DNA of 64,000 nucleotides, taken from assembly GCA_000004985.1 (NCBI GenBank), contig GG738907.1. The stretch is one strand, 5' to 3'. The position numbers and the translations under genes are program-made. The notes below the pieces were generated by a model. The model was not told where the DNA came from. It saw only the letters and a list, made by a program, of their open reading frames with translations, and ran no database searches. Positions 18,187 through 57,300 of the stretch are shown in pieces. The DNA comes from Naegleria gruberi. Lineage: Eukaryota. The stretch's first letter is position 1. Each line of letters opens with the position of its first letter.

Positions 18187-18592
18187 AAAATGATATTGAT
18201 TTGTAGAAATGATGAGTTTAAGAGAGGATGTTTAGAAAGTTGAGAATTCCCAACTCTATTTGATATTGATTCAATCCCTTCAAATCAAATTCTTGGTATT
18301 TTGTAAAGTACAGAGAATCAAGACGCCATTTCGCTCGATTTATCTCTTAAATTACTGGTCATCTTTTAAAAATCACAAATTGGTTTATTTCAGATTTCAA
18401 TAATTAAATACAACTTTCACTCCATTTCATTGTATTATGAATTGTATATTTTGAATAGTGTTTCTTCAAAGTATTGTTGTTATTATTTTGGCGGGTTGTA
18501 GTTTTCAAAAATACACCATGTGTCACTTGACATTTAGAAAATTCCTTAAATACTGAACTGTTTTCGAGAAATGATTGAATCAAAACAAAAAA

Positions 18593-20473
18593 ATGAATCA
18601 AAACAATAGATTCCTAGTGTTTGCGCTTCTAGGTCTTACTTGCTTGATTAGCTTCATTCTTACTAGCTCTGTAGTTGAAGGTAGAAGAGCTGCAGTTGTG
18701 CGTAAAGTTGCAGCTGTCAAGAAGCAATTGACCTACAAGAAATGTGAATCTGTTGGTGACCCTCATTATCTTTCTTTCACTGGTCAACGTTTCGATCACA
18801 TGGGATTAGGTGATTATGTTCTTGCTCAATCATCTGACAATCAATTCACAGTCCATGTTAGAACTAGTAAGTGGGGAGGTGCTGCAGCTGTCAATTCCAA
18901 TGTTGCTGTCAGATTAGGTAAAGGCGAGGATGATACTTTCGAATATGATGTCGAACAAGATGTTTTTTACCTTTCTGGTGTTAAGGCAAGTTTGGGTGTC
19001 AATCAAAAGGTTTCTCTTGGAACTGGTGATGTTCAAAGAATCAACACAAACACTGCTGTAGTTTCTGGCTCAAATGGTATCAAGATGACCATGTCTTGGT
19101 ATCGTCATGCTGCTTGGAAGCAACAATTGGGTTCTGTTGGTTATATTTCAGTTGTCATTGATGCTCCAAGTGATATTACTTTCAATAAGGGTATGTGTCT
19201 TGGTGCTTCCGAAGCTTCTCAACAAGCCATTGATATTCTCCACAACCATGTCCAAAGAAGAATTGCTAGAAAGGCTGAACTCAAGAAGGCTACTCCAAAG
19301 AGATCTAGATCTGCTAGAAAGGTCTGTAAGAAGGCTGGTTTGAATAAGAAGCAAAATCCATTCGCTTGGAAGTCTTGTGTCAAGGATGCTATTCAATCTG
19401 GATCCAAGATTGGTTTGAAGATTGGTCAAAACATCAAGAAGGTCAAAGTTGCTGAAAAGAAGGTTTTGAAGAAGGAAATCAAGAAGAAGGCTAAGAAGAT
19501 TGTTCGTAAGGAAAAGAAGGCTATTGAAAAGGCAAAGAAGGAAGCTGACTTGTTGAAGAAGAAGGCCGATCAAGCTCAAAAGAAGGCAACTCAAAAGAGA
19601 GCCAAGTGTGCTAAACGTGCTTCAAGAAAGGCCAGACGTGCTGCTAGAAGAGCAAGACGTGCTGCCAAAAGACTTGCCAAGAAGAAGCAAATTCTCAAAA
19701 AGGTCAAGAAAACCATTAAGAGATCTGTTCGTACCAAGATTACTATTGTCAAGAACTGGAAGAAAATCATCAAGAAGGTTTTGAATGATAGAAAGAAGGC
19801 CCTCAGAGCTGCTAAGAAGGCAAGACAAGCTGCTAAGAAAGCTATTAAAGAAGCTTCAAGAAAGGCCAGAAAAATTGCTGAAGAAAAGAAGAGACAAGCT
19901 GAAGAATTGGCCAGAAAGCTCCAAAGAGATGCTGAAGCTGCTGCTAAGAAATTGAGAGATGCTGTTGAAGCTGCTGCTAGAAAGGCAAGAGAAGCTGCTG
20001 AAAGAGCTAGACAACAAGCTGAAAATGCTAAATTGGAAGCAACTCGTCGTGCTAGAGTAAAAGCTGCAAGATTGGCCAAGTTAGCTAGAGAAGCTGCTGA
20101 AAGAGCTGCCAAGCAACAAAGAGCTATCCTTGAACAAATCCAAAAGCTTGCTAAATTGGCTGCTATCAAAAAGGCTCAACAAGAAGCTGAAGCAAAGAAG
20201 AGAGCTGCTGAAGCATTGAGACTTGTTGAAGAAGCCAAGAGAAAGGCTGCTGAAGCTCTTGAACGTGCTAAGGCTGAAGCAACCAGAAGAGCCATTGAAA
20301 TTGCTGACAGATTAAGAAAGGCTGCTGAAAAGGCTGCTGAAGAAGCTGCTAAAAGAGTCAAGATGGTTGAAGAATTGAAGAAGAAAGCCCTTAAGGATGT
20401 TGAAAAGCAAGCTAGAAAGCTCCTTAATGGTGGTGTTTCCAAGGGAAAGACTGTATGTTTCAGACTTCCTTAA
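18593..20473 (+). CDS. Secreted protein: signal peptide + von Willebrand D-like domain with GDPH motif + ~430-aa Lys/Ala/Glu/Arg-rich helical repeat
   Basis: The ATG at 18593 gives MNQNNRFLVFALLGLTCLISFIL, a signal peptide. KCESVGDPHYLSFTGQRFDHMGLGDYVLAQSS matches the VWD start C-x-x-GDPHY-x-TFDG, the motif that flanks the autocatalytic Asp-Pro site in VWD/RGM proteins. From about 19380 to 20440 the sequence is an uninterrupted K/A/R/E-rich helical low-complexity region (KKAKKIVRKEKKAIEKAKKEADLLKKKADQAQKKA...). Confidence 0.6.
   Translation: MNQNNRFLVFALLGLTCLISFILTSSVVEGRRAAVVRKVAAVKKQLTYKKCESVGDPHYLSFTGQRFDHMGLGDYVLAQSSDNQFTVHVRTSKWGGAAAVNSNVAVRLGKGEDDTFEYDVEQDVFYLSGVKASLGVNQKVSLGTGDVQRINTNTAVVSGSNGIKMTMSWYRHAAWKQQLGSVGYISVVIDAPSDITFNKGMCLGASEASQQAIDILHNHVQRRIARKAELKKATPKRSRSARKVCKKAGLNKKQNPFAWKSCVKDAIQSGSKIGLKIGQNIKKVKVAEKKVLKKEIKKKAKKIVRKEKKAIEKAKKEADLLKKKADQAQKKATQKRAKCAKRASRKARRAARRARRAAKRLAKKKQILKKVKKTIKRSVRTKITIVKNWKKIIKKVLNDRKKALRAAKKARQAAKKAIKEASRKARKIAEEKKRQAEELARKLQRDAEAAAKKLRDAVEAAARKAREAAERARQQAENAKLEATRRARVKAARLAKLAREAAERAAKQQRAILEQIQKLAKLAAIKKAQQEAEAKKRAAEALRLVEEAKRKAAEALERAKAEATRRAIEIADRLRKAAEKAAEEAAKRVKMVEELKKKALKDVEKQARKLLNGGVSKGKTVCFRLP
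19380..20440 (+). repeat. Coding low-complexity repeat: ~1 kb of Lys/Ala/Arg/Glu codons (aag/gct/aga/gaa periodicity) inside the VWD gene
   Basis: Visible as reiterated aagaaggc, gctgctaagaa, gaagctgctg units. This creates spurious long ORFs in other frames on both strands. Confidence 0.7.
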
Positions 20474-20858
20474 TTGAAAGTTCTAAAACATTCCGAATGT
20501 TGGAAATGTAAATATTCAATTATTGTAAAATAAAATCATCTATAAAAATTAATGTAAAAAACAGTGAGTGAATAGGAAGTGTAAATATTAATAGAGTAGT
20601 GTATTTAAAATAATTAAATTGAATGAAATTTAAACAACATTTTTTTAACGATGGTCCAGTTAATAGTATTTTAAACAACAATTTTAAAAACAAAAAATTG
20701 GGCGGGAAATAGTTTTAAAAAATAAGGTGACATGAAACTCTCACAACACATCATCAACAATTAAAATACATCATTCTCAATTAATTTAAAATTAGTTGAA
20801 TCCGATTGTATAATGGATCCCGCCATTACATATTGTTTCCATTCATTAATCATAAAAA

Positions 20859-22378
20859 ATGTCTTTGAATATCAATAGTCATTCAGGATCAAGAAATCAC
20901 TCGCGTAATCCCTCACCAATGGTGCCACCAACTTCGATATTGAAGAAGGCTGTGATTCCTCCGAATAATTCGGCACAGAATAGTGTCACAATTAATATGT
21001 CAAAGAATGAAACAAAGAGTACAAGTTTTAAATGTTGTTGGTGCATGGATATTTTGAAAGAACCTATTCAATTATCGAGCACGTGTTCTCATTATGGATG
21101 TGCCAGATGTATCAATCTGTTATTGAATTTTGAAAAGTTGAAACGTTGTTGTGATAAATAGTTGAGAATAGGAAACCTTATGAGATACCATGTCCTTGTT
21201 GTCCCAATAGATTGTCATTGTTGTATGATAAGGTACATTCAGATCCTTCGGTATTTGAGCAGAACCAGGAGGGCTATTATTCTACATTTAACAGTGCTCG
21301 ATCAGATGGATTTGGCGGTGAAAAGATTAATCCTTACCTATTTACTCTTATTGATGAAGAGTTTAAATCACTCGCAGATGAGTATGGTAATACAGAATTG
21401 GAAGGTAGAATGTGTGCCAATTGCGAGACTACTCTAGCTACTTGCCAATGTGAAACATGTAAATTTATTCTTTGTGGTGAGTGTTTTGCCTCCATTCATG
21501 ACCAAAAGTTATTGAGCTCACACAAAAAGGCTGATCTAAGGCCTGGAAATTATATTCCTATTAATGAAAAATGTATGAAACATGGAAAGGATTTGGATTT
21601 ATTTTGTATGAACGATAATGAGAAAGTTTGCAGTTTATGTGCCATATCTGAAACTCACAAAAATCATCAGTGTATTCCTGTAAACGAGCATATTTCACAC
21701 TTACACGATGATTTGAGGGTTCAAGCTGAACATCTATTTGCAGATGATGATTCAGCCATTCATAATGAAATTAGTAATATTACCAGTTTTTTACAACATG
21801 CAAATGATTACTATGTACAGTCTAAGAATTTTATTGAGGAAAACTTTGGAAAAATTGAAGCAGCACTAAAAAAGAGAAAGGAAGGCTTGTTGAACACAGC
21901 TTTAAAAACTTACAAAAATCCCAACATGGAAGAAAAGGTTAAATTGCTGAAAACATTCTCCTTCTCTGGTTGGAGAGATTCTATTGCACGATTTTCACGA
22001 AAGCTCAATGAAGAAGACAAGATTAATCAAACATCTAAACGATTGGAATTCATTGAAAATCATCTCACCATTGATCACATGTTGAACTCGGGAGATATCA
22101 TACCTGGTAATAATTTGGAATCTAGTCAAGAAGATAATGCTTATTCCAGATCTCAAACACCAATGTTGGAGGATGGTATTGTTTCAGATATTATCAATAT
22201 GATTGAAATGATTACGATATCAAAAGATGAACATGCTCAAAATCAAGAAAATATCAAACATGATAAGAAATTCAAATCAATAATCGGAGACATGATGCAC
22301 CAAAATGAAAATTCAATACGAAAGTCCATTTCCATCACTTGTTTGAGCTCTAAAAAACGATTAGGATCTACGCAATAA
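20859..22378 (+). CDS. RING + B-box1 + B-box2 + coiled-coil (RBCC/TRIM-like) protein, 2 exons (20859..21118, 21172..22378; intron 53 nt)
   Basis: Exon 1 carries the first part of a RING (CCWC...STCSHYGCARC). A read-through stop at 21159 is avoided by the donor gttattg at 21119 and the acceptor aatag at 21170-71. The junction codon ct|g then restores CARCINL|KPYEIPCPCC, a complete C3HC4 RING. B-box1 is CANCETTLATCQCETCKFILCGECFASIH. B-box2 is CMKHGKDLDLFCMNDNEKVCSLCAISETHKNH. A coiled coil follows. Confidence 0.6.
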
Positions 22379-22486
22379 TCTCATTCAATCATTATTTGCA
22401 TTCTTTCAATAAAGTATAATATTAGGGATGTAAATTGATCTCCGATCCTTTATTTACAGAGATATCACAATAGTGATTCAAATTTT

Positions 22487-23196
22487 CTAATAAAAGTTTT
22501 GATCGATTTGAGTTCCACAAATGTTTGTTGTTCCTTGGAATTGCTTAATGCTTGGGTGACTAAAAGATTTGAATTGTAAAAATACGAATTAAATAAAAAG
22601 AATACTTACCTCCATCCTCCAAAAGATTGGAAGTTATCAAATGATGCATTGTTATCATAGTAAGCCCACCATAATTGCAAATTGGAGAAGGCAGTAGAAC
22701 CACAAGTAATTGGTTGCCATTGAGAATGAGAAGAATAGATGTGAACTGGATAACCTGTAGCTCTACCAGCATTAACCATTCTAGAGATAAAGTTAACATT
22801 GGTTTGACAATTATTAGTCCAGTATTGAGGACCTTCAATATCGAGCCAAATTTGACCAAAGGTTGCACCATTACTCTTGATAAAGTTGACAGTATTTTGA
22901 ACTTGAGCAGCAGCATCTTCATTAATATTTGGGAAGATGTAAATATCAACATATTTAATACCAGCAGCCTTGGCACGATTGATGTCATTAGCAACATATG
23001 GATTGACACGTCCAGTTGATAATTGAGCTTGAATAATAGCAAATTCACGTCCAGATTGCTTTAAACAATTCCAAGAACTTTGAGAAACATCTCCTTGGAA
23101 ATACGACAAATCAAGACCCAATGTAGCATTGGCAACAGAGGCAGCAAATGCCATCATCAAAACCAAACCAACAATCACAGAGCAGTATCTCTTCAT
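22487..23196 (-). CDS. GH25 (Chalaropsis/Entamoeba-type) lysozyme, secreted, 2 exons (22610..23196, 22487..22559; intron 50 nt)
   Basis: Signal peptide MKRYCSVIVGLVLMMAFAASVA. GLDLSYFQGDVSQSSWNCLKQSGREFAIIQA...AKAAGIKYVDIYIF matches the GH25 N-terminus GIDVSHWQG...DFAIIKA...AGI. The ORF stop is really a gtaagt donor (tgg ag|gtaagt). The downstream exon SHPSIKQFQGTTNICGTQIDQNFY resembles the GH25 C-terminus (ISGNVDLN-F). Confidence 0.7.
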
Positions 23197-23791: not shown

Positions 23792-26700
23792 ATGTTCAAA
23801 GGCTCATACTACGAGAAGGTTCTTGATGAAGAGGAGAGTTTCAAACCAACAACAACACCATCATCACCATCAGAACAACATGAAGATGTAGATAGTACTT
23901 CTTCGGAGGAAAATAATATACTTCCACCAATGATATCATCTCCAATGGAAAAGAAGGAAAATATAACGGTTGATCGAATGGAAACAAAGGCTTGTTCGAA
24001 GGCTTGTTGTTCTTCATCATCATCATCGAAGGCTGGTTGCTCAGAGGAAGAAGAACAACACGAACATTCGGCAGTTAATAGTACTCACAAACATAGTAAA
24101 AGAGGAACGAAATCAAAGTTGATGTATGGAAAGAAGAAGATCAAAATTAGTCAACTGCAACATTTGACAAAACAACATGATGAACATCATCACGAAGAAG
24201 AAACGACGTCAGAAACAACAAACATTTGCGAGAAGTCAAGCTCTTCTAATTGTTGTTCTTATGGTTCTTGCTCAAAGGAAAAACAAAAAGAACCAAACAA
24301 TGCAATTGTTTCAGATTGCTGTTCTTCAGGTTCCTGTTCCAAGAAAAGCAATGTTCCAGTTGAGAAGAAATCAACATGTACTTCTGGTTGTTGCCAGTCA
24401 GTATCAACTTCCACTGAGAGCAGAACAGAATTGAAATTGGATAATTTACTTCCTAATCACAAGTCTCTGCATTTGACTGTGAGAAATTTGCATTGTGCTG
24501 ATTGTGCCAATATGGTTGAGGGAGTTTTAATTAAGAAGAATGGTATTCTGAATGCCAGAGTGAATAGTATGACAGATTCAGCTCATGTAGTATATGACGA
24601 ATTAATTATACAAGAAACATTAATTGTAAAATCAATTCAAGACCTTGGATTTCCAACTAGTGTCTCTCTATTGAAAAACATTTCAAATTCTGATCAGGAA
24701 ACTCTTACAACCATGTTCGAATTCAAACAGGAGTTACAAACACACAAAGTAGATGAATTAGTTAAGAGCATTGAAAAAGGGGATGGCATTATTCATACGG
24801 CCTATGATACATCGAGTTGTCTCCTCCAAGTGGCTTACAATCCTGATATTACAGGTACAAGAGATATTAAGAAAATGATTGAAACCATCGATTCGAGCCA
24901 TATGTTTACAATTATGAGTGGTAGTAAAGCTAACGAGATTACCGATCAGAACAATAAGAATGAAATCAAAATATGGAGGAGAAACCTTATTGTTTCCTTC
25001 ATTCTTAGTATTCCAGTCATATTTACAGCATTCATCTTTCCAATGATCAAACCAGTTGATGAATTTTTGAAGAAGGAATTCTTACAAGGCCTCAATAGTT
25101 ATATTCTTATTGGATTTATTTTCTCAACACCAATCCAATTTTATTTTGGAAGACCATTGTACATGTCAGCTTACAGAGCTCTACGATATGCAAAAAAGCC
25201 AAACATGGATACACTTGTAATGCTGTCAACTACCACTGCTTATGTTTACTCGTTAGTGAGTACAATAATTGCAATGTTTGTTGAGACTTACAAGGCCGAA
25301 GCATTCTTTGAAACTTCGGCACTCTTGTTGACATTTATCATTTTGGGAAGGTAGGTTTTCTTACTTGTTATTAATTTTATTTATAATTACTATTAAGGTT
25401 TTTGGAAATACTTGCCAAAGGACAAACTTCGAGCATACTTACTTCCATTTTGAAACTCAGATGCACCAAAGCTTTTTTGATATTCAGAGGAAACTATGAA
25501 AGAATAACATGTCAAACCGAACTTGTAAATAATTCACATGCTGTAGAGGAAGAGGAGATTGATACTGATCTTGTTCAAAGAGGCGACATTTTAAAATGCC
25601 TTCCAGGTTCAAAAATTCCAACTGATGGAGTAGTGTTTTATGGCACTACATCGATTGATGAATCAATGATTAGGTAAGTTTTGAACCATAATTTAATTTG
25701 ACATTATTCAACCATAATAGTGGTGAATCTATTCCAGTTAACAAGGATGTTGGAGATTTTGTTTATGGCAGTACAATCAATCAATTTGGAACAATCTATA
25801 TCCGTGTAACAAAAACTAGTTCTGAAAATACTCTTTCTTCAATTGACAAATTAATTCACGAATCTCAAAATGCTAAAGTACCCATTCAAAGAATTGCTGA
25901 TAATGTTAGTGCAGTGTTTGTACCTGTAATTATTGGTATTTCCTTATTGGCTTTTATTATTTGGATCAGTTTGTGTTATGCTGGAGTTTTGGAAACTGAC
26001 CTGCATCCAATCACCTTTGCTTTACAGTTCTCTCTTGCAATTTTGGTAATTAGTTGTCCTTGTGCTATTAGTTTGGCAGCTCCAACAGCTGTGATGGTCG
26101 GTATCGCCAAAGGTGTTGAGTATGGTGTACTATTCAAGAATGGTGCTGTAATTGAGATGTGCCACAAGGTTAACACAGTCATATTTGACAAGACTGGTAC
26201 CTTAACCAATGGAAAACCAGTTGTTACAGACGTGTTGCTTTTTGAGGGAGATGATTTGAAGCAATTCAAAGCAATTATAGGTTCTGCAGAGTTGGGAAGT
26301 GAACACGTTATTGGAAAGGCTATTTCAACACACGTAGAAAAGGAGGGAATAGCTATAGAACAACCTGTTGATTATCAAGCAGTTCCAGGAAAAGGATTAA
26401 AATGTACAGTCTATGGAAAACAAGTGATTGCAGGTAATTGCACTTGGATGAAGGACAATTCAATTGAAATTTCAGAAACACAACAAGAACAAATTTTAAC
26501 TTTGGAGAATCAAGGAAAGACAATTGTTCACGTTGCAATCGATGGTTCTTTACATGGAATTGTTGCCCTCTCTGATACTCTCAAGGTGGAATCCAAACGA
26601 GTTATTGATGAATTGAAGAAGAAGAATGTGGAAATTTGGGTGGTTAGTGGAGACAACCAAGTCACAACTAGATATATCGCCAACCAATTAGGCATTGAGA

Positions 26701-28619: not shown

Positions 28620-28831
28620 ATATTTGTACAATTTTGATTACAACAAGATTTTCAATTTTCATATGAAAGTTATTCAATAAACTTATCAATTTTGTCCACT
28701 AAATCTCTTATTTCAATTAAATCATTGAATATCTTCGAACAATCTATTGAATTCTTCAATGCCAAAATGTAAACTTCAACATTTGATCAACAATTTCAAT
28801 AAGCGATTTCGAATAACTTTTTCAAAAAAAA

Positions 28832-31273
28832 ATGTTACCTCCTCATCTCTTCAAATCTTCTGTTAATATCAAACCTGATCGTTCCAATTTTACATTGGAA
28901 AGGAATTATGATCTGATTCAGGAATCTCTGATGGAAAAACGTGAAATTTTAATTCCTGGCGAGGAAATTGAAATTGATTCACATGTTTATTGTGTTAATT
29001 TGTTTAAAGTAGCAAATTCGGGTGATGAAAATAAAGTAGTGGAAACAGTTGATGAAAAGATGAATTCGGGTGATGGAAAGGAATTGATTCGAAATAAGGA
29101 TCATTTGTTCTTGGTTGACCATTTGTTGCATCAGGAAGAGTGTAAAGAAATATTAAAGAAGGAAGAATCGTTGGGTTTCGAATCAATTACTTCTGAATAT
29201 CCGGTTGAGTATAGAAATAGCAAGAGAATTCTTTACAATGACAAGGAATTGGCTGCCAAGTTATGGAAAAGATTGAAAAAGTACATGATTGATTGTAATT
29301 TTATGAAACCTTATGGTTTAGACAGTGAAGGTTATTGGATTCCAATATCTGTAAACGAATGTATGAGATTGAGCAAGTATGAACCTGGAAATTATTTCAA
29401 ACCTCATACTGATGGTCAATTTGTGAGAAATGATGATGAGAGAAGTATTTACACATTGATCATCTATTTGAATGATGGATTTGTTGGTGGCGAAACTAAA
29501 TTCATGAGAAGAGTTGATCCTCTCGCTGAAAATGAAATGAAATTCAAGAATTTATGTGAAATTAGTCCCAAGATGGGAAGTGCATCTGTGTTTAATCATG
29601 ATTTGTATCATCAGGGATGTCTAGTAACAGAGGGTGTGAAATACATTTTAAGAACTGAAATAATGTTCAAGAGAATTGACTCAGCTGAGCAATTAGTGAC
29701 TAAACAAGATAATGATGAGATCTATAACAAAGTTATGGATCTTTTGCATGAAAGCGACCAACTGGAAAGGAAGGGGGACACTTACCAAGCAACCAAACGT
29801 TATATAAGTGCACAGGAATTATTGATCAAAAGTGGACATTCAACTTCAATGTTAATGAATCCAAAATTTCTTTCTAAAAGGAAAACTCTCAATGCTGAGA
29901 ATTATTCAATGAAGAGCTCAATTTCTCGATTACCAGATGAGATTATCTCACATATTTGCAAATTTTTGAATGACTGGGAAATTTGCAAGCTCATTCTTCC
30001 ACTCGACAGATATTTCAATGATATTGGACGAAACTCACCATTATGGGAATGGATGTATATGAAAAAATGGGGACATTCTATCACTAATTTACTGAAACAA
30101 TTTCACTCAAGAAATATTGAGGAGCTTAGAAATCTCAATTCACAAGACAATACAAGCTCACTTGAAGAAACACCAACTGAGGAGCAGGATTGGTTCCATA
30201 TTTATATCATGAAACGATATTTTGAAAAGGAGTTTGAACCAATTTGTGTGGATTTTGGTCCTGATATGTATTCCTTTACATATTTTGCAACCATTAATGG
30301 AGATATCGAAAGAGTTGTAACTAGACCCATAAAAGGGGCCACCAGACAGTAAGTAGAATATTTGTGAAACTTTCCAAGATCTTTTTGAAAATAGTGCAAC
30401 CATCACTAAATTTTGCAGTTATATCTTACCAGATTATCATAATCAAAACTCTCGATCTCTGGCTGGAGCAGTTAAAATTCATGATTTAAATAATGGTGGC
30501 TATTCGAAATATGTTCAACCATTCGTCAACTTGCTTTACAAAAAATTGAACAAGAGTTGTCAAAGGAATCCGATTATTATCAGTTGTGGATCGAGTGAAT
30601 TTATGAATTTCAATTCTTGGAAAGAAGTATTATTGGATTACATGGTAAGTATTTCACATTAGTTCATCAAATATATTCTGAAATCGTCTAGTTCAAGATT
30701 AAGATCCCAGCTGTTTGCGTGCTCCCAAGATGTTATCTATTAGCAATTTACTTTAATCTACCAACATGTCTAGTTATTGATGTTTTAAGTAATGCAGTTT
30801 ATGTACATGCCATCATTCAAAATGACAAGGATCAAATTAGAACTGTCTATAAACCCATCACATCTAACAGGAACGTGTATCCTATAAGGCCAGCAGAGGA
30901 TAAAAACTCATTCGAGGGGCCAATAATTAATGCCATTGACACCCTCTTGGATCAATTTTCAGATAATGCCAATCTGAAATCTCATTTAATGGAAAATATT
31001 ATACTTTCTGGAATTATTGTTGAAAATTCTTACGAATTTAATTTCAGAAATCTTGGTGAAGAACCAAAATCAAAAAGAAAAGATTTGGAACGTAACGATA
31101 TTCTCGAGGTATTCAACTCTCCAAATTCCAAATATCAAGTCAAATATCAAGCTAGTGGCGAAGAGGCCATTAAGGGAGCTCAACAATTTTCTAAAATTCC
31201 AAACTTTAAGGATTATTGCACTTATTGGTTCGATTGTGAGAAGTTTGTCAAGCAATTCGATGCATTTGAGTAA
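28832..31273 (+). CDS. Fusion-architecture protein: prolyl 4-hydroxylase-like 2OG-Fe(II) dioxygenase + F-box + compact actin-related (Arp-like) domain; 3 exons (28832..30348, 30419..30644, 30692..31273)
   Basis: The P4Hc motifs are YFKPHTDGQ (H-x-D), YTLIIYLNDGFVGGETKF, the second His in NHDLYHQG and the Lys in VKYILRT. The F-box is LPDEIISHICKFLNDWEICKLILPL...WEWMYMKKW. Then, in the same ORF, ICVDFGPDMYSFTYFATINGDIERVVTRPIKGATRQ resembles the actin N-terminus [33 protein letters not shown]. The joined exons give PIIISCGSSEFMNFNSWKEVLLDYM|FKIKIPAVCVLPRCYLLAIY, resembling [66 protein letters not shown] resembles [32 protein letters not shown] resembles NTVLSGGTTMYPG. The introns are 70 and 47 nt. 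Confidence 0.55.
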
Positions 31274-54315: not shown

Positions 54316-57300
54316 TTAAACAGAAGAAACAGTTACTTTCTTTCGATGTGTCAAAAACCATAATCTCAGTCCAAATGCTATACATGCCACAAGTCCCATA
54401 CCTCCAACTATTGGAATACTAATTAAGGCAAATAAGGCATACATGCTATTATCATTGGATTGTGAACAAATATTACTTTTACATCCATCTCCACAATAAT
54501 TAGCTTGGCACTGATCACAATTTGATCCAGTCCAATAACCATCTGCAGAATTGGCTTTACACTGACATATGTTTTGTGAAATGCAAAGTCCGTGACCTCC
54601 ACAAACAGCAGAATTGGTTTTTGGAATTTCAAAACATGTCCAAGAATCTGAATTGCCTGGAGTTTTTGTGGAATTTTGTGTTGTTGATTGAGTAGTATTA
54701 TTTACAAGAGTGTTATTATTACTTGTCGTGGTAGTATTTACATTATTGCCTATAAGTGTATTATTATTTACAATTGTGTTATTTGAAGAGTTAGTATTTG
54801 TAATATTATTATTTGTTATATTGTTTACAGTAGAATTATTATTCAATGACACAGTCTCATTTGTATTCATTGTTGTATTATTCGAATTATTGACAGTAGT
54901 GTTATTTGTAATAGTATTATTTGTAACGGTAGAATTTGAATTAAGTGTTGAGTTTGAAATAGCGTCATTGCTTAATGTTCCATTATTGTTTGGAATTGAA
55001 TTATTGGTATTGGAATTATTCATCTCTAGAGTGGTAGTATTTACAATAATTGAGCAATCCAATCCCTTCCATCCAAATTGACAATCACACTTATTTACAG
55101 TTGAACAGTTTCCATTTCCGGAACACACTGAACTATCATTGGCAAAAATGTTAAAGCAAGAAGGGATGGAACAATCGAATCCAAACCATCCATTAAAGCA
55201 TTGACAAGAATCAGTTGCTGTGCAATTACCATTTCCAGAACAAACTGAGCTCTCATTGCTTACAATTCCAAAACAAGTGGACAATTCACAATTATTTCCA
55301 TAAAAACCAGGATTACAAATGCAAGTATTTGGTGAATTACAAACTCCTCTTGATGAACAAACTTTTGAAGAATTTGAAATAATTCCAAAACATTTAGAGA
55401 ATTCACAAAATTGACCACCGTATAAATCTCCACAATCACAAACATCAGGTGCAAAACAAACACCCAAGCCATTACAGACATTTGGATTGTTGGCAAAGGT
55501 TCCATTGCATGTACGAAGTGTGGATATTACTCTTAGTCGACTATTGTCAGAGTCAATTACAATTATTTCACCATTTCGTCTTAAAATTACTCCAGATGGA
55601 TTATTGATTTTTGAAGCGGAGGCAGTGGTTCCATCTTCACTGTAACCCAAATCACCAGTTCCTGTAATGGTGGTGATATTACCATTAGAGAGAACTCTTC
55701 TAATTCTATTATTGTACGAATCTGCAATCAAGAGTTCATCACCGTCAATGGCAATTCCTTGTGGATATTTGAGTTGTGCATTTGTTGCTTCGATTCCATC
55801 ACCGTTATAACCTAATGTGCCTGTTCCTGCAACAGTTATAATTGTTCCATTAGTAAACATCTTTCTTATTCTATTGTTATAAGTATCTATTTGAATTAGT
55901 TCATCAATTGAAGATTCTTATTTCACTTACCTGCAATGTACATGTTATTACTTGAATCAAATGCGATAGATTGTGGATAATTCAGCTTGGTATTGTTCGG
56001 TAAGAGATAATCACCATTAAAACCAACAGAGCCTCCAATAACTGTGGAAATATTTCCACTTGGTAATATTAGTCTAATTCTATGATTATACGTATCTGTA
56101 ATATAAACAAGATCATTTGAATCAACAGTTACTGAAACTGGGGAATTGAGTTTCGCATTTGTTGCTGGAATTCCATCGCCATTGTAGCCACCTAATCCAA
56201 CTCCAGCTATAGTAAGAATTGTACCATTTGTCAAAATTTTTCTAATTCTATTATTACCAGAATCTGGTAAAGTTTCAATACAAAAAATAATGGAAGATTA
56301 CTTACCTGCAATATAAATATTACCAATGGAATCAAATGCAATTCCTGTTGGTTTGTTAACTTGAGCACTTGTTGCCAAAATTCCATCTCCATTATAACCA
56401 AAAGATCCAGTACCTGCAATGGTTGTGATGGTCCCATCCAAGTACGAAATCTTTCTAACTCTGTGATTGCTTGTATCTGTGAAAATCATTGAAACCTTAA
56501 TAAATTTCACACAATCAACTGAAAACTTACCAGCAATGTAAATATTTCCCAATGAATCCAATGCAGCACCTTTAGGTTTACTCAATGCGCTCAATCTAGA
56601 ATCAACATTTTCACCACAATATGATGGAGAACCTTGTCCAGCTATTGTGGTAATAAATCCATTTGAAATCTTTCTAATTCTGTGATTTCCCTTATCAGCA
56701 ATATATAAATCACTTGTGTTCTTGGCAAAATTCATCAATTCAGGAGAGGCAAGAGTTGCCAAATTGACCGTAGTATTATCAGTAAAACCATACAAACTCG
56801 TTCCTGCAAATGTTGTAATGGTTCCATTGGTAGACACCTTTCTAATTCTATTAGAATCTGAAAAATAAACTTCGCCTAATGATGAAACTGCAACTCCATA
56901 AGGTGAATTAATTTTAGCTAAGGTTGCCAGGCCTCCATCTCCATAATAATCACCTGTTCCAGTACCGGCTATGGTTACAATAGTGCCATTCAATAATACT
57001 TTACGAATTCTGTTATTATTGGTGTCAGCAATATAAATATTGTCTTTCGTATCAACAGCAACACCAAAGGAAAGAAACAAAGTTGCACTCGTAGCTTTCA
57101 TGTTATCTCCATTGTAACCTGTGAAAAAGTAATAAATTAAAAAACAGTTCCGTTAAAATACATACCTTGAGAATTGCTTCCTGCCACTGTTATAATTGTT
57201 CCATTGTTGAACACTTGGCGAATTCTATTATTGTTCACGTCGGTAAAGAGTAATTCTTCCTTGCTATTTAATGTAAGGCCATAAGGATAATTAATAGCTG

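What the first reader, a model, noticed from the sequence alone, without database searches (positions are those of the whole stretch)
20859..22378. TRIM-like RING-B-box-B-box-coiled-coil protein, with a 53-nt intron cutting through the RING
The tripartite RING/B-box1/B-box2/coiled-coil architecture is classically associated with metazoan TRIM proteins. Here it occurs in an amoebozoan-like genome. The RING is complete only if a 53-nt intron (gttattg...aatag) is removed. Naive ORF calling instead ends the RING exon at a stop and starts a separate B-box gene. Automated annotation would therefore likely mis-split this locus.
Basis: partly seen in the sequence, partly recalled or inferred. Interest (0 to 1): 0.6.

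Follow-up and report, generated by a model that had tools for sequence, protein, structure and literature searches.

The report
Frameshifted TRIM-like gene, not an intron
This Naegleria gruberi locus does encode a TRIM-like RING/B-box/B-box/coiled-coil ubiquitin-ligase-type protein, but the supposed 53-nt intron is conserved coding sequence, and the gene is broken in this reference sequence by a 22-base frameshifting deletion, which is why it is annotated as two separate genes.

Summary
The window is Naegleria gruberi NEG-M (Heterolobosea, not Amoebozoa). The RING–B-box1–B-box2–coiled-coil architecture is real. The proposed 53-nt intron (21119..21171) is not supported. A ~99% identical contig from another N. 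gruberi strain or haplotype (L001) reads through as one 513-aa ORF and has 22 extra bases at this spot. The window therefore carries a 22-nt deletion, flanked by AAAT microhomology, that shifts the frame. The residues the "intron" would remove (LLNFEKLKRCC…) are conserved in homologues at 65%, 32% and 27% identity. They form the confidently modelled central helix of the RING, and all relatives have 25–74-residue C6–C7 loops. The donor GTTATT scores −3.1 bits against 3.6–11.3 for 14 real introns of this window, which all start GTA..T. There are 21 different frame-restoring GT…AG pairs nearby, so finding one is expected. pN/pS of 0.07 between the two copies shows the gene was recently functional. 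Whether the deletion is a true null allele or an assembly error is open. Similar R-B1-B2 proteins occur in Pelomyxa, Ploeotia and Tetraselmis, so novelty is modest.

The parts
20859..21161 (+). Upstream ORF, annotated as XP_002671197.1 / NAEGRDRAFT_73778 (100 aa). It holds a low-complexity N-terminus, RING ligands C1-C6 and the start of the RING helix. It ends at the TAG (21159-21161) brought into frame by the deletion.
   Evidence: tblastn P0001 aa 1-100 = 20859..21158, frame 3
21033..21110 (+). RING ligands C1-C6 (C59..C84: CCWC-x13-C-x-H-x2-C-x2-C)
   Evidence: weak RING profile hits on residues 57-93
21119..21171 (+). It is actually coding sequence for the RING central helix (LLNFEKLKRCCDK) plus the remnant of the C6-C7 loop (IVENR), now in two different frames.
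21156..21159 (+). Deletion junction. 22 nt (TGGAAGGTGAGGAACCTGAAAT, encoding LEGEEPE plus 1 nt) present in L001 are missing here. Placement is ambiguous within the AAAT microhomology.
   Evidence: DNA alignment; CDS alignment gap of 22
21158..22378 (+). Downstream open frame: rest of the RING loop, C7-C8, linker, B-box1, B-box2, coiled coil and C-terminal helical tail.
   Evidence: tblastn P0001 aa 108-513 = 21158..22375, frame 2
21191..21202 (+). RING ligands C7-C8 (CPCC)
21410..22378 (+). Annotated downstream model XP_002671198.1 / NAEGRDRAFT_81611 (322 aa), starting at the first in-frame ATG
21413..21526 (+). B-box type 1 (C-x2-C-x8-C-x2-C-x4-C-x2-C-x4-H-x7-H)
   Evidence: PF22586 E=7e-4, below cut-off; MID1 tandem B-box alignment; pLDDT 92-96; CONSTANS/MID1 tandem B-box fold hits
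21563..21682 (+). B-box type 2 (C-x2-H-x7-C-x2-D-x4-C-x2-C-x5-H-x2-H)
   Evidence: PF00643 40.2-45.3 bits against 24.1; TRIM39/TRIM21/TRIM5 B-box2 hits; 0.5 A rmsd to TRIM5 B-box2
21680..22099 (+). Coiled-coil region: a 78-residue helix directly after B-box2, then return helices
   Evidence: AF2 helix 282-359 of P0001 with pLDDT about 90, then helices to 421; Foldseek matches to KAP1 RBCC and TRIM5/TRIM72 B-box-CC

Best explanation
The locus is a single-exon Naegleria gruberi gene for a TRIM-like (RBCC) protein: C3HC4 RING with a long C6-C7 loop, B-box1, B-box2, coiled coil, and a helical tail with no known domain. By homology the intact protein most likely acts as a dimeric RING E3 ubiquitin ligase. 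The RING would recruit E2~Ub, the B-boxes and the coiled coil would drive self-assembly, and the tail would bind substrate. All of this function is inferred. In the sequence of this window (reference strain NEG-M) a 22-bp deletion flanked by a 4-bp AAAT microhomology removes part of the RING loop and shifts the frame. Translation from ATG 20859 therefore stops at 21159 after ligand C6, and the rest of the gene lies in another frame. The '53-nt intron' is just one of many GT..AG pairs that can paper over the frameshift. It is coding sequence, not an intron. The deletion is either a genuine recent null allele (favoured roughly 2:1, because a microhomology-flanked 22-bp loss is typical of real slippage or MMEJ events) or an error of the reference assembly. 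In either case the two annotated genes are fragments of one.
For: (1) L001, ~99% identical over 20728..22443, is one 513-aa ORF. The only frame-breaking difference is 22 nt absent from the window, and the other coding indels are 3 nt each. (2) tblastn shows the frameshift signature: aa 1-100 in frame 3 abut aa 108-513 in frame 2 at nt 21158. (3) The residues encoded by the 'intron' are conserved: CINLLLNFEKLKRCC (L001), CVNMLLNFEKLKRCC (P0003, 65% id), CVKVLVGQEQLKRSS (P0004, 32% id, an uninterrupted ORF on the 7-kb genomic contig L002), CIMANINFKKLKLK (P0006). Similar helices occur in the Pelomyxa and Ploeotia proteins. (4) P0003's 32-residue loop polarises the change: the intact state is ancestral. 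(5) All relatives have C6-C7 loops of 25-74 aa, while the splice would give 9. (6) AF2 puts a confident helix (82-99, pLDDT about 93) on exactly these residues. (7) 14 forced introns in this window all start G-T-A-x-x-T (13/14 have G at +5). The candidate GTTATTGA scores -3.1 bits against 3.6-11.3 leave-one-out, and 27% of random GTs do as well. No consensus donor exists in the RING-coding DNA of L001, L002 or L003. (8) 21 alternative frame-restoring GT..AG pairs exist. (9) pN/pS = 0.073 (10 synonymous, 3 non-synonymous) shows a recently constrained coding gene.
Against: The indel is the only one in the CDS that is not a multiple of 3, which is also what an intronic indel would look like. The candidate's length (53 nt), GC (0.26) and acceptor (AATAG, 4.6 bits) fit Naegleria introns. 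The spliced product keeps all eight zinc ligands and still models as a RING (pLDDT 81-92). The equivalent 75 nt in L001 is a multiple of 3 and stop-free, so read-through there is not proof on its own. No cDNA or read data could be examined. The deleted allele was not found in any independent assembly, and the intact allele was seen in only one sample. Whether that sample is DNA or RNA is unresolved.
Confidence: 0.85

Rival explanations
1. 21119..21171 is a genuine 53-nt spliceosomal intron (75 nt in the L001 strain), and the mature mRNA encodes a 488-aa RBCC protein with a 9-residue C6-C7 RING loop.
For: GT..AG ends, in-frame junction, all RING ligands kept. Length, GC and acceptor are typical of the window's introns. 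A non-multiple-of-3 indel would be tolerated in an intron. The spliced RING is still foldable in AF2.
Against: The donor GTTATT lacks the invariant A(+3) and the G(+5) found in 13 of 14 introns, and scores like a random GT. The translation of the segment is conserved at 65/32/27% identity and across other protist RBCC proteins. It forms the high-confidence RING helix. No relative has a short loop. There are 21 alternative frame-fixing pairs.
Confidence: 0.04
2. The 22-nt deletion is an artefact of the reference assembly (or of a collapsed or minor haplotype). NEG-M really carries the intact 513-aa single-exon gene. This overlaps the best explanation on 'no intron' and differs only on whether the frameshift exists in the organism.
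For: pN/pS of 0.07 and otherwise near-identical sequence. The deleted form appears in no independent assembly. Naegleria is described as mainly a heterozygous diploid (PMC9928731), so a consensus may carry one haplotype.
Against: A clean 22-bp loss bounded by AAAT microhomology is typical of biological deletions, not of Sanger base-calling errors. No read data could be inspected.
Confidence: 0.28
3. The two ORFs are now two genuinely separate functional genes: a small RING-fragment protein and a RING-less B-box/coiled-coil protein.
For: Both are annotated. RING-less TRIM-like proteins exist in animals (general knowledge). The first in-frame ATG at 21410 sits just before B-box1.
Against: The 100-aa ORF lacks ligands C7/C8, so it cannot form the second zinc site. 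There is no promoter-sized gap, since the ORFs overlap. The split is absent from the sister allele and from all homologues.
Confidence: 0.05
4. Translational recoding. A -1 ribosomal shift at GAT AAA TAG (21153-21161) yields a 506-aa protein lacking only seven loop residues.
For: The downstream frame opens at 21158, exactly at the stop, so a -1 shift there would keep the helix and all ligands.
Against: There is no X XXY YYZ slippery heptamer and no known recoding in Naegleria. The AAA-UAG motif promotes +1 frameshifting in Euplotes (general knowledge), which is the wrong direction here.
Confidence: 0.01

Closest known systems
Animal TRIM/RBCC proteins with two B-boxes (MID1/TRIM18, KAP1/TRIM28)
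   Same: Same order: RING, B-box1, B-box2, coiled coil. The B-box2 Cys/His spacing is identical, with 37-46% identity to TRIM5/39/41 B-box2 and 0.5-0.9 A rmsd. The tandem B-box aligns to MID1 (E=2.5e-7). The RBCC model matches KAP1 over 300-348 columns.
   Different: The RING has a 34-residue C6-C7 loop and scores below Pfam RING cut-offs. The RING-to-B1 linker is about 70 aa. There is no recognised C-terminal domain (no SPRY, NHL, PHD, COS or MATH). The host is a heterolobosean. In this window the gene is frameshifted.
TRIM37-like 'subfamily A' TRIMs of non-animal eukaryotes (Marin 2012, PMC3503706)
   Same: RING plus B-box plus coiled-coil proteins already reported outside animals, including in excavates.
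   Different: Subfamily A has one B-box and a MATH domain. This protein has two B-boxes and no MATH hit.
Protist R-B1-B2 proteins: Pelomyxa schiedti 'midline 1' KAH3746276.1, Ploeotia vitrea EP01006_P055117, Tetraselmis astigmatica EP00192_P003964
   Same: RING with a long C6-C7 loop (25-35 aa), two B-boxes, and a coiled coil (TRIM_CC 24.7 bits in Pelomyxa). The Pelomyxa protein aligns to query residues 54-415.
   Different: Only 23-27% identity, with different C-terminal regions. Orthology is untested.
Plant BBX / CONSTANS tandem B-box proteins
   Same: The tandem B-box fold is the top Foldseek hit (7wsj, E=1.2e-4).
   Different: BBX proteins lack the RING and the TRIM-type coiled coil. By sequence the B-box2 is much closer to animal TRIMs (E about 1e-7) than to CONSTANS (E about 0.1).

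Membership tests
TRIM / RBCC | N-terminal C3HC4 RING with all eight zinc ligands in one reading frame | tested here: not met
   In the window's own ORFs the RING is cut after C6, so the regex fails on XP_002671197.1. It is met in the intact allele L001/P0001 (C59..C122, 34-residue loop).
TRIM / RBCC | RING recognised by curated profiles | tested here: inconclusive
   P0001 gets only zf-RING_6 at 14.6 bits (cut-off 35). P0004 gets zf-C3HC4_4 at 29.8 against 30. Paralogue P0006 passes zf-C3HC4 (27.9 > 21) and zf-RING_UBOX (28 > 25.2). The AF2 RING has pLDDT 85-94.
TRIM / RBCC | B-box type 1 (C-x2-C-x7-12-C-x2-C-x4-C-x2-[CH]-x3-4-H-x4-9-H; consensus from general knowledge) | tested here: met
   The sequence reads C-x2-C-x8-C-x2-C-x4-C-x2-C-x4-H-x7-H. 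It aligns with MID1 B1-B2. The Pfam ANCHR-like_BBOX hit is only 20 bits (<27). pLDDT is 92-96.
TRIM / RBCC | B-box type 2 | tested here: met
   PF00643 scores 40.2 bits (window product) and 45.3 bits (P0001) against a cut-off of 24.1. Rmsd to TRIM5 B-box2 is 0.5 A.
TRIM / RBCC | Coiled coil directly after B-box2, in the order R-B1-B2-CC | tested here: met
   AF2 gives helix 282-359 starting at the last B-box2 ligand, pLDDT about 90. Foldseek matches the KAP1 RBCC and TRIM5/TRIM72 B-box-CC. Antiparallel dimerisation was not tested.
TRIM / RBCC | E3 ubiquitin-ligase activity | not testable with these tools
   Needs an in-vitro autoubiquitination assay with the intact allele.
TRIM37-like subfamily A | C-terminal MATH domain and a single B-box | tested here: not met
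   No MATH hit, and two B-boxes are present. Definition from PMC3503706.
Naegleria spliceosomal intron (for 21119..21171) | Donor consensus GTA[AT]GT | tested here: not met
   14/14 forced introns have A at +3 and T at +6, and 13/14 have G at +5. The candidate GTTATT scores -3.1 bits against 3.6-11.3, and 27% of random GTs do as well.
Naegleria spliceosomal intron (for 21119..21171) | Short (42-52 nt), AT-rich, with a [TCA]AG acceptor | tested here: met
   53 nt, GC 0.26 (set range 0.14-0.28), acceptor 4.6 bits.
Naegleria spliceosomal intron (for 21119..21171) | Segment not conserved as protein in homologues | tested here: not met
   Its translation is conserved in P0003, P0004, P0006 and in the Pelomyxa and Ploeotia proteins. 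It is in frame and stop-free in L001, L002 and L003.
Naegleria spliceosomal intron (for 21119..21171) | Removal seen in cDNA | not testable with these tools
   No transcript data were available. The DNA or RNA origin of L001 is unresolved.

The most novel reading that the evidence does not exclude
The 22-bp deletion is real, and the cell rescues the gene by splicing out the 53-nt GTTATT..AATAG segment. That would be coding sequence turned into a nascent intron ('intronization') caught between two strains of one species, giving a RING with a minimal 9-residue loop. A milder novel reading is more likely (about 0.5): the two-B-box RBCC architecture with a long-loop RING is an ancient, pre-metazoan family shared by Discoba, Amoebozoa and green algae. 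That would contradict the view that all TRIM subfamilies except TRIM37-like are animal-specific.
Probability: 0.04. Interest if true: 0.65.

Novelty: new member of a known kind. Interest (0 to 1): 0.3.

Why it matters
For annotation, two N. gruberi reference gene models (NAEGRDRAFT_73778 and NAEGRDRAFT_81611) are fragments of one RBCC gene. They should be merged or flagged as a frameshifted allele, not joined by an invented intron. For evolution, this is a clean example, supported by intact homologues, of a RING–B-box1–B-box2–coiled-coil protein without a MATH domain in a heterolobosean. Related proteins occur in an archamoeba, a euglenid and a green alga. This adds to the evidence that TRIM-type architecture predates animals, and splitting of the gene model would have hidden it from domain-architecture surveys. 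For method, it shows that a frame-restoring GT..AG pair is weak evidence for an intron in an AT-rich genome.

Tried and rejected
(1) Exact-sequence look-ups of P0002, the GH25 exon ORF, the 100-aa ORF and the 388-aa ORF in public assemblies found nothing. So there is no independent view of the deleted allele and no way to tell whether sample ERZ929261 is DNA or RNA. (2) A literature search for PRJEB11402 returned nothing. (3) A raw hexamer census of GTNNNN was uninformative. I replaced it with forced-junction analysis that is unbiased on donor motif and a leave-one-out PWM. One intron coordinate was off by one and was corrected. (4) The word-indexed homologue search missed P0004 and P0006, and the first run missed P0153. 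The exhaustive HMMER search was needed. (5) AF2 of the spliced product did not discriminate between the models. (6) A -1 recoding at AAA-TAG was considered and rejected, because there is no slippery site and the direction is wrong for the Euplotes-type motif. (7) tblastn found no paralogues in the window. (8) I looked for consensus donors in the RING-coding DNA of L001, L002 and L003 in case homologues had an in-frame retained intron, and found none.

Full report
**Organism and locus.** The window has 34% GC. Its ORFs at this locus are 100% identical to two adjacent Naegleria gruberi NEG-M 'predicted proteins' on a 275-kb scaffold. They are XP_002671197.1 / NAEGRDRAFT_73778 (100 aa) and XP_002671198.1 / NAEGRDRAFT_81611 (322 aa). 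N. gruberi belongs to Discoba/Heterolobosea, not Amoebozoa.

**Checking the observation.**
- The ORF from ATG 20859 stops at 21159-21161 after ...CARCINLLLNFEKLKRCCDK.
- A second frame is open from 21158 to 22378.
- Removing 21119..21171 (53 nt, GTTATTG...AATAG) joins them into a 488-aa product. Its RING pattern is C-x2-C-x13-C-x-H-x2-C-x2-C-x9-C-x2-C.
- B-box2 is significant (PF00643, 40.2 bits against 24.1). It matches TRIM39, TRIM21 and TRIM5 B-box2 at E = 1e-7 to 1e-5.
- B-box1 has the exact type-1 ligand spacing and aligns together with B-box2 to the MID1 tandem B-box (2jun). It is below the Pfam cut-off (20 against 27 bits).

**The intact allele.**
- The homologue search returned P0001, a 513-aa protein on a 1,740-nt ENA contig (L001). 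It covers the whole spliced product but carries 25 extra residues in the RING.
- At the DNA level L001 is ~99% identical to window 20728..22443.
- Within the CDS there are 13 substitutions (10 synonymous, 3 non-synonymous; pN/pS 0.073) and two 3-nt indels.
- There is also one 22-nt stretch, TGGAAGGTGAGGAACCTGAAAT, present in L001 and absent from the window. It is bounded by the direct repeat AAAT.
- tblastn of P0001 on the window gives the textbook frameshift picture. Residues 1-100 match frame 3 up to nt 21158, and residues 108-513 match frame 2 from nt 21158.
- The window copy therefore differs from an otherwise constrained, uninterrupted gene by a frameshifting 22-bp deletion in the RING C6-C7 loop.

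**Could the segment still be an intron (75 nt, in frame and stop-free by chance in L001)?** Three independent lines say no.

*(i) Protein conservation.*
- An exhaustive HMMER search found P0003 (65% identity), P0004 (32%) and P0006 (27%).
- Aligned, the residues encoded by the 'intron' are among the best conserved of the N-terminal half:
  - L001: CINLLLNFEKLKRCC
  - P0003: CVNMLLNFEKLKRCC
  - P0004: CVKVLVGQEQLKRSS
  - P0006: CIMANINFKKLKLK
- Comparable helices occur in the Pelomyxa (CLQGHFHLQSLIP) and Ploeotia (CIAGIYGFQKIRA) proteins.
- P0004 is an uninterrupted ORF on a 7-kb multi-gene genomic contig (L002). P0006 is uninterrupted on L003.
- Every relative has a C6-C7 loop of 25-74 residues. 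The splice would leave 9.
- P0003's 32-residue loop shows that the long form is ancestral and the window's state is derived.

*(ii) Structure.* AF2 of P0001 with 65 homologues puts a helix on residues 82-99 (ARCINLLLNFEKLKRCCD) at pLDDT about 93 within a confident RING. Only the deleted stretch (101-110) is lower, at 68.

*(iii) Splice signals.*
- Junctions in this window that are forced by flanking long ORFs, found without any donor filter, almost all offer a GTA[AGT][AG]T donor.
- For 14 such introns the donor is G14 T14 A14 (A10/T3/G1) (G13/A1) T14. Lengths are 42-52 nt (plus one of 101 and one of 118), and GC is 0.14-0.28.
- The candidate donor GTTATTGA scores -3.1 bits against 3.6-11.3 leave-one-out. 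27% of all GT dinucleotides in the window do as well.
- The candidate's acceptor, length and GC are acceptable.
- There are 21 different GT..AG pairs around 21040-21300 that restore the frame, none with a consensus donor. Finding one that also keeps the cysteines is not remarkable.
- No consensus donor lies in the RING-coding DNA of L001, L002 or L003.

**What favours the intron model.**
- The 22-nt indel is the only coding indel that is not a multiple of three, which is also what an intronic indel would look like.
- The spliced product keeps all ligands and still models as a RING, with its helix cut to residues 82-86 and pLDDT 81-84.
- I could not examine cDNA.

I put the intron model at about 4%.

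**Architecture and relatives.**
- The AF2 model shows both B-boxes at pLDDT 92-97. A 78-residue helix starts at the end of B-box2 and is followed by return helices.
- Foldseek finds the CONSTANS and MID1 tandem B-boxes, TRIM5 B-box2 at 0.5 Å, TRIM5/TRIM72 B-box-coiled-coil, and the KAP1/TRIM28 RBCC over 300-348 columns.
- No C-terminal domain is recognised.
- RING profile scores are sub-threshold for P0001 but pass in the paralogue P0006.
- Outside the Naegleria clade, hits include animal TRIM-type proteins and protist proteins with the same R-B1-B2 layout and long RING loops: Pelomyxa schiedti 'midline 1', Ploeotia vitrea and Tetraselmis astigmatica.
- Marín 2012 (PMC3503706) already reported TRIM37-like (one B-box plus MATH) proteins in excavates and other non-animals, and regarded the other subfamilies as animal-specific. 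This protein is not TRIM37-like, since it has two B-boxes and no MATH domain.
- It is thus a further, modestly interesting, non-animal RBCC member rather than a new kind of system.

**Mechanism.** These steps are inferred from family knowledge and were not tested. The intact protein should act as a RING E3 ligase that self-associates through its coiled coil and B-boxes. In the window's sequence, translation from 20859 yields a 100-aa fragment lacking ligands C7/C8, which cannot complete the second zinc site. A RING-less B-box/coiled-coil product could arise only by internal initiation at 21410.

**Is the deletion real?** This remains open. The microhomology-flanked 22-bp loss looks biological, and Naegleria is described as mainly a heterozygous diploid (PMC9928731). 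However, no independent assembly shows the deleted form. I weight a true allele against an assembly error at roughly 2:1.

**Verdict.** The intron interpretation is rejected in favour of a frameshifted single-exon gene. Interest is low to moderate. The value lies in correcting an annotation and adding a data point for the pre-metazoan history of two-B-box RBCC proteins.

Noticed in passing
window 22560..23196 (-): A secreted GH25 muramidase (lysozyme) gene lies immediately downstream. It has a signal-peptide-like N-terminus, a PF01183 match at E=3.8e-17, and a textbook 50-nt intron (GTAAGT...TTTTAG) at 22609..22560. It is a bacterial/fungal-type lysozyme in a bacterivorous amoeboflagellate.
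   Followed up: partly
window 18575..20473 (+): The upstream gene encodes a signal peptide, a VWD domain (PF00094, E=1.2e-7) and a tail of about 400 aa that is extremely rich in K/A/E/R and predicted to be helical. Its composition generates several long spurious antisense ORFs (19591..20442, minus strand).
   Followed up: partly
window, 14 introns (e.g. 25351..25397, 25674..25720, 30349..30394, 56305..56264): Introns in this window are strikingly uniform. 12 of 14 are 42-52 nt, all have a GTA..T donor with G at +5 in 13 of 14, and GC is 0.14-0.28. This makes a useful local splice model for checking any proposed N. gruberi intron.
   Followed up: yes
L001 1..1740 and L003 1..1782 (ENA ERZ929261 / ERR1078381): L001 starts 131 nt before the ATG and ends about 30 nt after an AATAAA, so it looks like a transcript. 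L003, from the same sample, has a 489-nt ORF-free 5' flank, which looks genomic. I could not establish whether this 'metagenome' is DNA or RNA.
   Followed up: partly
L002 1939..3387 (P0004) and the RING regions of P0006, P0069, P0012, P0099: RING C6-C7 loops in this protist RBCC group are unusually long (25-74 residues). The 74-residue loop of P0004 exceeds the classical 4-48 spacing, which is why Pfam RING models match only the first two-thirds of the domain.
   Followed up: partly
window 21153..21161: The downstream frame opens at 21158, exactly at the premature stop (GAT AAA TAG). A -1 shift there would give a 506-aa protein lacking only seven loop residues. No slippery heptamer is present, so I regard this as coincidental.
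   Followed up: partly
window 28817..30348 (+): This exon encodes a 2OG-Fe(II) oxygenase domain (PF13640, E=1.2e-10) with a weak secondary match to the poxvirus C4/C10 family (PF03336, 23.7 bits, just under the cut-off of 25).
   Followed up: no
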